A DNA stretch of 63,278 bases, counting the filler, from Collodictyon triciliatum (taxonomy: Eukaryota), in the NCBI GenBank assembly GCA_043381765.1. It is 8 parts of 8 records of this genome, joined end to end, with 100 filler letters (N's around TTAATTAATTAA, not from the genome) between each part and the next. Parts side by side here need not be neighbours in the genome. Positions count along the whole stretch, not along the records: positions 1 to 8,224 come from JBHJMP010003521.1; 7 more parts are not named here. The stretch is one strand, 5' to 3'. The number at the start of each line of letters is the position of its first letter. Within the stretch, counting starts at the first letter, position 1. Below are positions 1,683 through 4,600 of the stretch, piece by piece. The notes beneath the pieces were generated by a model. That model did no database searches. It saw only the letters and a program-made list of their open reading frames with translations, and was not told the origin of the DNA. A program made the translations under genes and the position numbers.

Positions 1683-4600
1683 ATGAAAAAAGGAAGCATT
1701 CTCCCCAGAGAGGATCTCCAAACAAATCTGCGATGCCAAAACAACGCGGCCGAGGGTAGACTAACCGTCGAGGTGTATGACTGGGAGGGTGGGGGTGGGT
1801 GGATTGGCGCAGATATAATCGTTTCAAATGAACTCCATTTTCGGCTTATCGACAAATTGCTGAAGGGCTTGGTAGATAGGAAAGATAACTCATCATCTGA
1901 TGAAACTAGTCACCAATTAGACTATTATATCTCGTGGAGAAGAGAAAAATGTAATCAACTGAACGATACCATAGGGAGGCGAATCCCATGCATCCATTTC
2001 AATTTCAGATTATATGGCGGTGGACAAAGTCACTCTACAAACTTACTGATGCTGAATTTCGAGCAAGGGAATGATGGACAAGGTGAGGATTATGCCACTG
2101 GAAACGAAGCAACCCTAGATATGGAATCACCAGAGAACACAGCACCGGTAAATCCTCACACTCTGGATAGCTACGAGATTCCTGACCAAGAACTTAGGGT
2201 AACTGTCGGAAATAAATCGTCTGACACTGCTGGGGCCGACGAAATTAAACAACATTTACCATTTTTCGATATTTTCGACGAGGATTTACGAAAACTGGAC
2301 GTATCAGAAAATATTCACGCACCTACTAATACCTTGTTTCTGGCTAATTACTATCGATTCAGAGAGGTAACATCGCACAAAATATTGGTTGACTACATCC
2401 TCAAGCTTACATCCAAGATAAAACATCTGACCATCGACCACATCGTCGAACTCCGATTCCTTGCCAGAACTTACAATTCAGATATCTGTAGTCAATTATG
2501 GAGCATTTTAACTGAAGAAGAAATGAAAGAATATTACACAAACCATAAATTTGTTAGGTCTTTAGCTGAAATATTATTGTTCTCTGATTCCCCTAGCCAA
2601 CAAAAAAAATTGAAAATTGTCGTAGAAAAAATCATGGATGAGATCATATCATTTCAAAAGTATGGGCACCATGCGATCGAGAATGTATCTCCTCAGCCTT
2701 TAGTACCAGGAAAGAGCGAATGCAATTTTTCACATCTAAATCCTTCTGAACATCCGTCGAGCATGAATCTGACAAAAAGGCAAGAAATTTTGGACAATCA
2801 GAATATCACAGATGAAAATGGAAAGAATCAAGATATGTCATCAGTTGCAAATGAATTCGAAAGAGAAAGGGATTATCTAGAAGATAAATTATCTGCAAGA
2901 GCAGAAAATATCTCTGTTAAAATAGAATACGATGATATTCTAGAGGAAAAACGGCTATATCAAGAGCGTGAGATCCAGTTGCTCATCGACTCATTGGGAT
3001 GCTTACTGGATTCTATGAATTTGAAAAGTATACACATCAATATTACAGATGAGAAAAGATCAAAAGTAATCGATTTTCTTTTAAAATCTAGAATAAGTCG
3101 TATAGAAAAAATAAATCATGTATTCGAGAGGACTTATCAAGGATTTATTCGTGTCTTGATGCCCTATGAATCATGTGCTGCACGTTTTGAAATGCCACCC
3201 AGGCCCAAAAATAAAAAAAGAAGTTTTGAAAAAGCTACAAGTAAAATTCTAAAAGAGTACACAACGTTAAGAGTCAATCTCCAACACATCAGTGGAAGGG
3301 AATATTGGTATGATGATTATATATTCTTCAAGTCTTTGGTATTATCTCATCGTCTGAAAGAAGCAATTTTATTTTCAGAATATATTCTCAAAAGTGAAAA
3401 GAACTCTGAATTTGTATTCTATGTCTTGTATGAGATGATAGAAATAGCTCAGCTACCTATTGAAATATGTTCTAGAGAAGCCCTGAAGTATGTAGAGAGG
3501 TTATTGAGTGATGATCTGGTCTTAGCCAACGAAAACTATGGTCACCATGCAATTTTTCAGCTACAAAAGCTCTGGAGAAATAAGGCACATTCAAAAAGTG
3601 CCCAAAATATTCTCCAGAATAAGAATGATATATTAGATAACTACGTGTTTGCTTCGTTGGTGGAGCGAGAGTTAGGAAAATTTTTGGAACGAATAAACTC
3701 ACTAGACGCGTGGGCGATTGACTGTCATATTCCGACCAATTTGCTGAGTCAGTCGATCGAACATTATGCTGAAGTACCCATGAATTCAGAATTTCAAGAG
3801 TCAAATCAAACAATTGAGTATGGATATAAAAAAGAAACCAAGTTGGATGAAATTTATGTTTCATTGAAAGCGAAAAAAGACTTCAACGATGAAAAGGATG
3901 AATGTGCTGATAAAATTGTCACAGATTTCTTAAAAGATCATTCAGGAACTCTAGTAATTCTCGGTAAGTCTGGTGCTGGGAAATCAGCATTCGTTAAAAA
4001 ATTATACGAAAGACTACGTTCAGAGGACTTACAAAGCTATCCAGTCTTTATCAAACTACCAGCTGTCGAGGACCCTAAAAGACTGAAAGAATATCTCAGA
4101 AAATACATGCGCTCAGATTATGATAAACTTTTAGAGTCACCTCGTGCAATTTTCATCATGGATGGATACGACGAGTTGAAAGATGCAGGAAAAGTTAACA
4201 TAATCAAGGAAAATGCGGGGTTTTTGCAAAGATTTCACATTATTATTACATATCGTTACAGTATACAAGAATCCAAGCACGATTTGCAGCGTATTTTTGG
4301 GCAGGAGAGAAGCGGAGAAGCTTATCCTTTAAAATTTATGATAATTCAGCCTTTTGGAGACGAGCAAGTTAAGCAATATATTCAATCATTTGTCGAATGT
4401 AATCCTTGGATTGCTTTTTCAAGTCAGGAGCTTATATCAAGGATTTTCAGTTCTCCAACTTTAAAAGAATCTTCAGAATCGCCATTCATCTTGTCGCTCA
4501 TTATGAAGGTTCTTCCGAGATACATGGAGGAAAAAAAAATTGGTTCCGAGGAGAACCTATCAAGATACGAAATTTATGAACGCTTCACTAACTACTGGCA

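What the first reader, a model, noticed from the sequence alone, without database searches (positions are those of the whole stretch)
1683..2036. NLR-like protein starts with a ubiquitin-like leader ending RLYGG, immediately followed by a cryptic N-myristoylation motif (GQSHS)
Seen: codons 1995-2036 read H-F-N-F-R-L-Y-G-G-G-Q-S-H-S. HFNFRLYGG parallels the ubiquitin C-terminus HLVLRLRGG. The preceding ~80 residues show a beta-grasp-like order: LTVEV, ADIIV, helix FRLIDKLLKGL, YYISW, IHFNF. Established: Ub/Ubl fusions are cleaved after the di-Gly by deubiquitinases/Ubl proteases, and N-myristoyltransferase needs a free N-terminal Gly and prefers Ser at the fifth residue (G-x-x-x-S). Inference: cleavage after G-G would expose G-Q-S-H-S, giving protease-gated lipidation and membrane targeting of a NACHT-WD40 sensor, or release of a Ubl decoy. 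This would be an unusual regulatory design for a STAND receptor.
Basis: partly seen in the sequence, partly recalled or inferred. Interest (0 to 1): 0.82.

Follow-up and report, generated by a model that had tools for sequence, protein, structure and literature searches.

The report
Conserved LxGGG junction in protist NLR-like protein
A large NLR-like sensor gene of an unidentified freshwater protist begins with a small domain of no known family that ends in a Leu-x-Gly-Gly-Gly-x-x-His-Ser motif also found in its only known relative, so the motif is real and constrained, but whether it is a ubiquitin-like cleavage and lipidation switch could not be shown.

Summary
Bases 1995-2036 read HFNFRLYGGGQSHS inside one intronless ORF (CDS 1683-7703, 2006 aa) that carries NACHT, pentapeptide-repeat and WD40 domains.

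The first 786 residues have no detectable relative in Pfam, PDB sequences, 1.84 billion representative proteins, the ESM Atlas, or metagenome, viral and prokaryote contigs.

The one exception is a Diphylleia rotans transcript protein, P0002 (34% identical over the NACHT region). It starts colinearly and carries LNGGGNGHS at residues 113-121, against our LYGGGQSHS at 110-118. This 6/9 match was reached by 7 of 20000 shuffles anywhere and by 0 of 20000 near the same offset. The start at 1683 is also supported.

The ubiquitin-like fold is not supported:
- no Ubl family or PDB sequence hit;
- two AlphaFold models at pLDDT 39.6 and 30.3;
- no usable Foldseek match.

Cleavage and myristoylation cannot be tested here.

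My best reading (0.45) is an orphan N-terminal output domain whose Gly-rich junction is a constrained turn or hinge. Processing at LxGG↓G is the main rival (about 0.27 in total). The full Ubl-plus-myristoyl switch is about 0.12.

The parts
1525..1565 (+). 41-nt poly(T) tract just upstream of the gene, probably promoter or 5' flank
   Evidence: Read directly.
1578..1682 (+). In-frame upstream extension (35 codons from ATG 1578), probably 5' UTR and not translated
   Evidence: 41% T. Codon log-likelihood in frame is about 0 (0.028), against 0.079 and 0.219 for the next two segments. The homologue P0002 starts colinearly with ATG 1683.
1683..7703 (+). Intronless CDS of a 2006-aa NACHT-pentapeptide-WD40 STAND protein (stop codon included)
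   Evidence: Frames +1 and +2 carry 14 and 20 stops in 1683-2400.
1683..2015 (+). Orphan N-terminal domain, residues 1-111, predicted mixed strand/helix; about 22% identical to P0002 residues 1-114
   Evidence: No family, PDB or library hit.
2010..2036 (+). Conserved junction L110-Y-G-G-G-Q-S-H-S118. The putative LxGG↓G site lies between 2021 and 2022.
2037..2054 (+). Short hydrophobic cluster after the motif (TNLLML; FLLSGAF in P0002). It contains ATG 2049, which is not conserved as Met.
2055..2267 (+). Acidic, polar, poorly conserved linker (residues about 125-195), probably disordered
   Evidence: Net charge -4, -4, -2, -5 per 20 residues. 3-5 identities per 30 residues with P0002. pLDDT 25-43.
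2268..2366 (+). Second conserved island (residues about 196-228)
   Evidence: 11 of 30 identities in block 181-210.
3303..4010 (+). Pre-NACHT region shared with P0002 (residues 541-776)
   Evidence: BLASTP: 24% identity, E 1e-13.
3948..4391 (+). NACHT NTPase domain with Walker A
   Evidence: PF05729, 34.9 bits against a cut-off of 26.7. P-loop regex.
5235..5435 (+). Pentapeptide repeats
   Evidence: PF00805, 51 bits; PF13599.
5430..6782 (+). WD40 beta-propeller region
   Evidence: PF00400, 39.2 bits, and many propeller families.

Best explanation
Bases 1683-7703 encode one intronless STAND/NLR-like protein. Its parts, in order, are: an orphan N-terminal domain (about 111 aa), the junction L-x-G-G-G-x-x-H-S plus a short hydrophobic stretch, an acidic disordered linker of about 70 aa, a helical pre-NACHT region, NACHT, pentapeptide repeats and WD40 propellers.

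By analogy with other STAND receptors (inference), the WD40/pentapeptide end senses a ligand, the NACHT module oligomerises, and the tethered N-terminal domain is the output (effector or adaptor) module brought together by that assembly.

The conserved Gly-rich junction is a constrained element of this output module. Most likely it is a tight turn or hinge between the last strand of the domain and a following hydrophobic strand or helix, and is not itself cleaved.

Shown: the gene model, the domain content, the orphan status of the N-terminus, and conservation and colinearity of the motif.
Inferred: the output role, and the turn/hinge role.
For: - Domain content.
- Start and colinearity.
- Coding signal.
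- Motif conservation: 6/9, 7 of 20000 shuffles anywhere and 0 of 20000 near the same offset; GGG is unique in P0002.
- Glycines are typically the best-kept residues at turns (established knowledge).
- Both proteins continue after the motif with a hydrophobic cluster, LLMLNF and FLLSGAF.
- The single-sequence model draws strand 103-111, the Gly loop, then strand 119-130 as a hairpin (low confidence).
- No ubiquitin-family signal in either protein.
- The region after residue 125 is acidic and unconserved in both, as expected of a tether.
Against: - Every residue that an LxGG↓G-x-x-x-S processing and lipidation site needs is kept, while neighbours vary. A plain turn does not predict the conserved Leu at -4 or the His-Ser.
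- The hairpin comes from a model with pLDDT 39.6 and is absent from the second model.
- Only two independent sequences exist, so constraint on single positions is poorly measured.
- No fold could be obtained, so the domain boundary (111 or about 130 residues) is unknown.
Confidence: 0.45

Rival explanations
1. Residues about 26-113 are a divergent ubiquitin-like beta-grasp leader. A DUB or Ubl-specific protease cuts after Gly113. The exposed Gly114 (GQSHS; GNGHS in P0002) is N-myristoylated after translation. Together with the following hydrophobic stretch, this takes the NACHT-WD40 body to a membrane.
For: - L-x-G-G, the third Gly and Ser at +5 are all invariant between the two homologues.
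- Both sites fit the permissive NMT pattern with S/T at position 5. Only 10-12% of glycines in these two proteins do so (the pattern itself is recalled from PROSITE PS00008).
- The compound pattern L.GGG...[ST] occurs only in P0001, P0002 and P0024 among the 25 stored proteins.
- The predicted element order b-b-a-b-a-b is compatible with a beta-grasp (low confidence).
- Post-translational myristoylation of a Gly exposed by caspase cleavage is established (PMC4200515, abstract seen).
- Release of a Ubl lodged in a larger immune polypeptide by a JAB peptidase has been proposed for bacterial conflict systems (PMC7159879, passages seen).
Against: - No Ubl family at E<=10 and no PDB sequence hit.
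- AlphaFold pLDDT 39.6 and 30.3.
- Foldseek gave no beta-grasp hit (meaningless at this confidence).
- The Arg at -5 is not kept.
- There are no basic residues or Cys after the Gly as a second membrane signal.
- Three unproven steps must all hold.
Confidence: 0.12
2. Protease bait (tripwire). The N-terminal domain is not a Ubl. Instead, the exposed L-x-G-G↓G junction mimics the target of GG-specific cysteine proteases of pathogens (adenain/ULP-like or PLpro-like enzymes of large DNA viruses, virophages or polinton-like elements) or of a host protease. Cutting it removes an inhibitory N-terminal domain and activates the receptor, as viral proteases activate NLRP1.
For: - The junction is conserved and sits at a domain/linker boundary, next to a long disordered stretch, which makes it accessible.
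- LxGG↓X and LxGX↓G are recalled consensus sites of adenovirus-type proteases and LXGG of coronavirus PLpro (recalled, from no call). The sequence L-x-G-G-G fits both registers.
- There is precedent for NLRs that sense protease cleavage in their N-terminal region (PMC7857732, abstract seen).
Against: - Tripwire sites in NLRP1 and CARD8 evolve fast, whereas this one is the most conserved element of the domain.
- No FIIND/ZU5-UPA was found that would release an effector after cleavage: none in the first 786 residues at E<=10, and none among the 25 families shown of 31 for the whole protein.
- No protease partner is known.
- No protease gene was seen among the window ORFs scanned.
Confidence: 0.15
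3. The shared motif is neutral retention or coincidence in two weakly related N-terminal regions and has no specific role.
For: - Domain-wide similarity is weak: 56 of 2000 shuffles reach the local score and 297 of 2000 the semi-global score.
- At about 22% identity, some 9-mer with 6/9 identities is not rare somewhere in a 110-residue alignment (own estimate).
Against: - The motif was named before the homologue was seen, and it is that same 9-mer that is kept, at the same offset (0 of 20000 shuffles).
- It is one of only three places in the first 750 residues with 6/9 or more identities.
Confidence: 0.1
4. Translation starts downstream (for example at ATG 2049), so the N-terminal domain and motif are not made.
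For: No RNA data could be obtained, so the transcript start is unknown.
Against: - The ORF is open from 1578.
- Codon usage in frame is positive for 1683-2021, while both other frames are negative and full of stops.
- The homologue's complete ORF encodes the same domain from its Met1 and has no Met at the 2049 position.
Confidence: 0.03

Closest known systems
Diphylleia rotans transcript protein EP00002_P002792 (P0002, EukProt)
   Same: Same architecture and order: N-terminal domain, LxGGGxxHS junction, polar linker, pre-NACHT region, NACHT, pentapeptide, WD40. 34% identity over residues 780-1300, E 2.7e-78. The motif is colinear.
   Different: The N-terminal domain is only about 22% identical, with a 14-residue insertion after the first strand pair. 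The protein is uncharacterised, and no paper was found on it.
NACHT-pentapeptide-WD40 STAND proteins of Mortierella alpina (P0005), an actinobacterium (P0022) and unnamed metagenome and genome proteins
   Same: NACHT followed by pentapeptide repeats and WD40 propellers; 20-28% identity over the NACHT region. Pentapeptide and propeller repeats as partners of STAND NTPases in bacterial conflict systems are described in PMC7159879 and PMC8195603 (passages seen).
   Different: Their N-terminal regions are unrelated. None of the 20 other stored homologues has L.GGG before its P-loop.
Ubiquitin/Ubl precursor fusions (UBA52, RPS27A, FUBI-eS30 type; recalled)
   Same: A small N-terminal module ending L-x-G-G directly fused to a downstream polypeptide.
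   Different: No sequence or profile similarity to any Ubl family. Fold not established. Cleavage not shown.
Post-translationally N-myristoylated caspase products such as ctBID (PMC4200515, abstract seen; substrate sequences recalled)
   Same: An internal Gly followed by x-x-x-Ser would become N-terminal only after endoproteolysis.
   Different: The protease here would be GG-specific, not a caspase. Nothing was shown experimentally.
NLRP1/CARD8 protease tripwires (PMC7857732, abstract seen)
   Same: An NLR whose N-terminal region could be cut by a protease as the activating event. A new N-terminal Gly is formed in human NLRP1 after 3C cleavage (10.1101/2024.06.24.600508, abstract seen).
   Different: No FIIND or CARD was found. 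The site is conserved rather than fast-evolving.

Membership tests
STAND / NLR-like NACHT NTPases | NACHT domain above Pfam's gathering score, with a Walker A motif | tested here: met
   PF05729: 34.9 bits against 26.7, E 1.7e-08. GKSGAGKS at ORF residue 796.
STAND / NLR-like NACHT NTPases | C-terminal superstructure-forming repeats as the sensor | tested here: met
   Pentapeptide 51 bits, WD40 39.2 bits, and many propeller families.
Ubiquitin-like (beta-grasp) proteins | Sequence or profile similarity to a Ubl family | tested here: not met
   0 Pfam families at E<=10 for residues 1-166, residues 1-206 and P0002 residues 1-205. 0 PDB sequences at E<=10. The A1 profile's weak ubiquitin hits lie after the motif (columns 137-196) and vanish with our sequence alone.
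Ubiquitin-like (beta-grasp) proteins | Beta-grasp fold (mixed sheet 2-1-5-3-4 around a helix) | tested here: inconclusive
   AlphaFold mean pLDDT 39.6 and 30.3. Foldseek had no hit at E<=0.001 and TM below 0.3. Only the order of predicted elements is compatible.
Ubiquitin-like (beta-grasp) proteins | C-terminal L-x-G-G tail at the end of the domain | tested here: met
   LYGG and LNGG in the two homologues. L.GG occurs 17 times in 43876 stored residues.
Ubiquitin-like (beta-grasp) proteins | Cleavage after Gly-Gly by a DUB or Ubl protease | not testable with these tools
   Needs expression and N-terminal mapping.
N-myristoyltransferase substrates | Gly followed by an allowed residue, S/T at position 5, no Pro at position 6 (pattern recalled from PROSITE PS00008) | tested here: met
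   GQSHST and GNGHSF both fit. The base rate is 10% and 12% of glycines in the two proteins.
N-myristoyltransferase substrates | The Gly is the free N-terminus | not testable with these tools
   Depends on the unproven cleavage.
NLRP1/CARD8-type tripwire sensors | FIIND (ZU5-UPA) autoproteolysis that frees the effector after N-terminal degradation | tested here: not met
   No ZU5, UPA or FIIND family in the first 786 residues at E<=10, or among the 25 families shown of 31 for the whole protein.
TRADD-N domain STAND proteins | Match to TRADD-N; conserved tiny-Ser motif between strands 2 and 3 (PMC8195603, passage seen) | tested here: not met
   No Pfam hit at E<=10. Tested at sequence level only.

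The most novel reading that the evidence does not exclude
A protease-gated lipid switch in a protist NLR-like receptor. An N-terminal leader is removed at a conserved L-x-G-G↓G site, either by a host Ubl protease or by a GG-specific protease of an invading virus (in which case the cut is itself the infection signal). The newly exposed Gly-x-x-x-Ser is then N-myristoylated and, with the adjacent hydrophobic stretch, drives the NACHT-WD40 body onto a membrane.
Probability: 0.12. Interest if true: 0.85.

Novelty: new variant of a known kind. Interest (0 to 1): 0.45.

Why it matters
NLR/STAND receptors outside animals, plants and fungi are barely studied, and their output domains are mostly unknown.

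This case offers an N-terminal module with no known family, present in at least two protists. Its one sharply conserved element is exactly the short pattern that a Gly-Gly-specific cut followed by N-myristoylation would need.

If cleavage occurs, it would link Ubl-type or viral protease processing to lipid-dependent relocalisation of an NLR-like sensor. I found no description of this design in the searches.

If cleavage does not occur, the result is an ordinary orphan effector domain with a conserved turn.

The hypothesis is cheap to test with two point mutants and a labelling assay.

Tried and rejected
**Searches for relatives of the N-terminus that found nothing**
- Residues 36-300 of the ORF against proteins of 1122-3572 aa: 974 candidates, 0 hits.
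- 786 aa against 1.84 billion representatives: 0 hits.
- ESM Atlas with our residues 1-166 and with P0002 residues 1-125: no usable hit.
- A1 profile against proteins of 362-2000 aa: only P0002 among 4342 candidates. Proteins of 113-360 aa and those over 2000 aa were not searched with the profile.
- Metagenome contigs: 231 and 85 pattern matches, none confirmed.
- Viral contigs: 114 matches, none confirmed.
- Prokaryote genome contigs: 65 matches, none confirmed.
- PADLOC and NCBIfam: nothing in the N-terminal domain.

**Structure**
- Both AlphaFold jobs failed to reach usable confidence.

**Ubiquitin hits of the A1 profile**
- PolyUb reached E 7e-5 only by adding four repeats of about 5 bits each. 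Mono-Ub was E about 0.45.
- The hits lie in the poorly aligned polar linker after the motif.
- Our sequence alone (residues 114-256) hits no ubiquitin. Rejected as spurious.

**Catalytic readings of GGG/HS, rejected from the sequence itself and the absence of Pfam hits**
- A patatin-like 'GGG' oxyanion loop, an HGGG esterase loop, or a GxSxG nucleophile elbow.
- No GxSxG follows within the next 70 residues, the centre Ser of 'GQSHS' is Gly in P0002, and the downstream sequence is polar linker.
- Autoproteolysis at His-Ser (Nup98/PIDD 'HFS' type, recalled) was considered and could not be tested.

**Expression**
- No RNA holder was listed. Only small shares (0.05-0.15 of words) were found, in 9 freshwater or lake metagenome runs.
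- The laid contigs of 4 runs leave 1702-2307 without cover, so they give no variants at the motif.

- No whole genome is held for this window, so paralogues, NMT and Ubl proteases of the organism could not be sought.
- tblastn of the protein against the window found no paralogue.
- Paper supplements were not consulted.
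Full report
**1. What is there**

The window is eukaryotic DNA of about 35% G+C. From 1578 to 7703 on the + strand runs one uninterrupted ORF of 2041 codons.

Pfam finds the following (positions counted from ATG 1578):
- NACHT at 791-938 (34.9 bits, cut-off 26.7);
- pentapeptide repeats at 1220-1286 (51 bits);
- WD40 propellers at about 1285-1735.

A Walker A GKSGAGKS is present.

Bases 1995-2036 translate to HFNFRLYGGGQSHS, exactly as reported. 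From here on I number residues from the Met at 1683. The motif LYGGGQSHS is then residues 110-118.

**2. Gene model**

A purine-only repeat array (1-1245) and a 41-nt poly(T) tract (1525-1565) lie upstream.

The 35 codons between ATG 1578 and ATG 1683 are 41% T and carry no codon-usage signal (0.028 per codon). Bases 1683-2021 and 2022-2400 score 0.079 and 0.219 in frame. Both other frames are negative there and carry 14 and 20 stops.

The closest homologue starts at a Met that aligns with ATG 1683. It has no Met at the position of ATG 2049. I take 1683 as the start.

No RNA evidence could be obtained.

**3. Relatives**

The first 786 residues have no detectable relative:
- Pfam at E<=10;
- PDB sequences;
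- 5.8 billion clustered proteins of similar length;
- 1.84 billion representatives read in full by HMMER;
- the ESM Atlas;
- PADLOC and NCBIfam.

Searching with the NACHT-pentapeptide part gave 22 proteins.
- The best is P0002: 1907 aa, E 2.7e-78, 34% identity, 99% coverage. The source names it a Diphylleia rotans transcript protein in EukProt.
- Next come a second Diphylleia gene, whose products start 47 residues before the P-loop (P0003, P0025), then a Mortierella alpina protein (26%), then unnamed and actinobacterial proteins.
- Only P0002, and its near-identical isoform P0024, has a comparable N-terminal region.

**4. The test of conservation**

BLASTP of our first 786 residues against P0002 gives a clear match only for residues 541-776 (24% identity, E 1e-13). 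The second-best segment is 87-118 against 92-121. It ends '...L-Y-GGG-QS-HS' over '...L-N-GGG-NG-HS' (E 1.3).

MAFFT aligns the two N-termini colinearly at 23% identity. The invariant positions include L110, G112, G113, G114, H117 and S118. An earlier shared pattern is G-R-x-x-[VI]-x-x-x-D-[WY]-E-x-G.

Shuffle controls:
- The local score of the two N-terminal domains (38) is reached by 56 of 2000 shuffles. The semi-global score is reached by 297 of 2000. The domains as wholes are only weakly similar.
That is reached by 7 of 20000 shuffles anywhere in 700 residues, and by 0 of 20000 within 10 residues of the same offset.

Other measures of the motif:
- It is one of three places in our first 750 residues with 6/9 or more identities to P0002. 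One of the other two is not colinear.
- GGG occurs nowhere else in P0002.
- In 30-residue blocks, the motif block has 9/30 identities against 3-8/30 around it.

The motif is therefore real, colinear and under constraint. The sample, however, is two lineages.

**5. Is the leader ubiquitin-like?**

I could not show it. The sequence-level tests are negative.
- No Ubl family and no PDB chain matches our residues 1-166 or 1-206, or P0002 residues 1-205.
- A profile of the two sequences gives weak ubiquitin hits. These lie in the polar linker after the motif, reach significance only by summing the repeats of polyubiquitin, and disappear when our sequence is used alone. I reject them.

AlphaFold gave mean pLDDT 39.6 (single sequence) and 30.3 (two-row alignment).
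- It also draws the motif as the loop of a hairpin whose second strand is the hydrophobic stretch 119-130.
- The second model loses these strands.

The fold question stays open.

**6. The lipidation motif**

Both GQSHST and GNGHSF fit the permissive NMT pattern with Ser at position 5 (pattern recalled from PROSITE). So do 10% and 12% of all glycines in the two proteins, so the pattern alone is weak.

What counts is that Gly and Ser are both invariant at aligned positions. The compound pattern L.GGG...[ST] occurs in no other of the 25 stored proteins.

After the motif both proteins have a short hydrophobic cluster. This is followed by about 70-90 polar residues, acidic in ours, that are not conserved. 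There is no basic patch or Cys.

**7. How it most likely works**

*Best reading (0.45).* The first 111-130 residues are the output module of a STAND receptor. A disordered linker tethers it. It is brought together when the WD40/pentapeptide end binds a ligand and the NACHT module oligomerises (inference from the family). The Gly-rich junction is a constrained turn or hinge of this module.

*Main rival (about 0.27 together).* The junction is an LxGG↓G processing site. This takes one of two forms:
- a bait for GG-specific proteases of pathogens or host, in the manner of NLRP1 tripwires (0.15; PMC7857732, abstract).

Post-cleavage myristoylation is an established mechanism in animals (PMC4200515, abstract). 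Release of a Ubl from a larger immune polypeptide has been proposed in bacteria (PMC7159879, passages).

Two points stand against the tripwire form: the site's conservation, and the lack of a FIIND.

Chance retention (0.1) and a downstream start (0.03) are minor.

**8. Comparison and novelty**

The NACHT-pentapeptide-WD40 body is a known kind. The N-terminal module belongs to no described family.

I found no paper on the Diphylleia gene or on a Ubl-leader/myristoyl design in an NLR. These searches cover only the held open-access library.

I class the feature as a new variant of a known kind. Interest is moderate. The conserved motif makes a sharp, cheap experimental hypothesis, but no step of the proposed mechanism is shown.

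**9. Limits**

- There is no genome of the organism, so paralogues, NMT and Ubl proteases could not be sought.
- Supplements were not consulted.

Noticed in passing
window 1-1245: About 1.2 kb made only of A and G on the + strand: degenerate arrays of GAAGAAAAA-like and GGAATAAAA-like units (GC skew 0.49 and AT skew 0.60 in the first 2 kb). It creates long spurious ORFs on both strands.
   Followed up: no
window 1525-1565: Uninterrupted 41-nt poly(T) tract 118 nt upstream of the likely start codon, possibly a promoter or nucleosome-excluding element.
   Followed up: no
window 52055-57311, minus strand: A ROCO-type gene in several ORF pieces: LRR (56793-57311), Roc GTPase (54858-55547), COR-A (53663-54763) and protein kinase (52055-53584). 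Unlike the NACHT gene, it appears to be split by short introns or frame changes.
   Followed up: partly
window 33468-36524, plus strand: WD40 repeats followed by many Ephrin_rec_like/TNFR-like cysteine-rich repeats (PF07699, E 8.5e-56). There is also an LRR protein at 45975-47297 (minus strand) and a B-box protein at 41560-42618. The neighbourhood is rich in signalling and receptor-type genes.
   Followed up: partly
window 1683-7703: The 6-kb NACHT gene has no intron, while neighbouring genes are broken into short ORFs. Beyond Diphylleia, the named homologues are Mortierella (P0005) and an actinobacterium (P0022); the rest are unnamed. Horizontal acquisition of the NACHT-pentapeptide-WD40 body is possible.
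   Followed up: no
window 2268-2366: A second conserved island after the disordered linker (residues about 196-228: I-F-x-x-D-L-R ... T-x-x-L-x-x-x-Y shared with P0002; 11/30 identities in block 181-210). It probably marks the start of the next folded region.
   Followed up: no
P0003, P0025 (Diphylleia rotans): A second Diphylleia gene (Trinity g1) yields 1245-1246-aa products that begin 47 residues before the P-loop and lack the whole N-terminal 660 residues, including the motif. This is either a natural short paralogue or partial transcripts.
   Followed up: no
window 8225-58248: Pairs of 44-nt N runs recur about every 8.3 kb, plus runs at 9553-9562 and 50415-50543 (755 N in all). They look like masking rather than biology.
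   Followed up: no
alignment A1, columns 137-196 (window about 2090-2270): The profile of the two N-termini gives weak ubiquitin hits in the polar linker after the motif (mono-Ub E about 0.45). They are not reproduced by our sequence alone and were judged spurious.
   Followed up: yes
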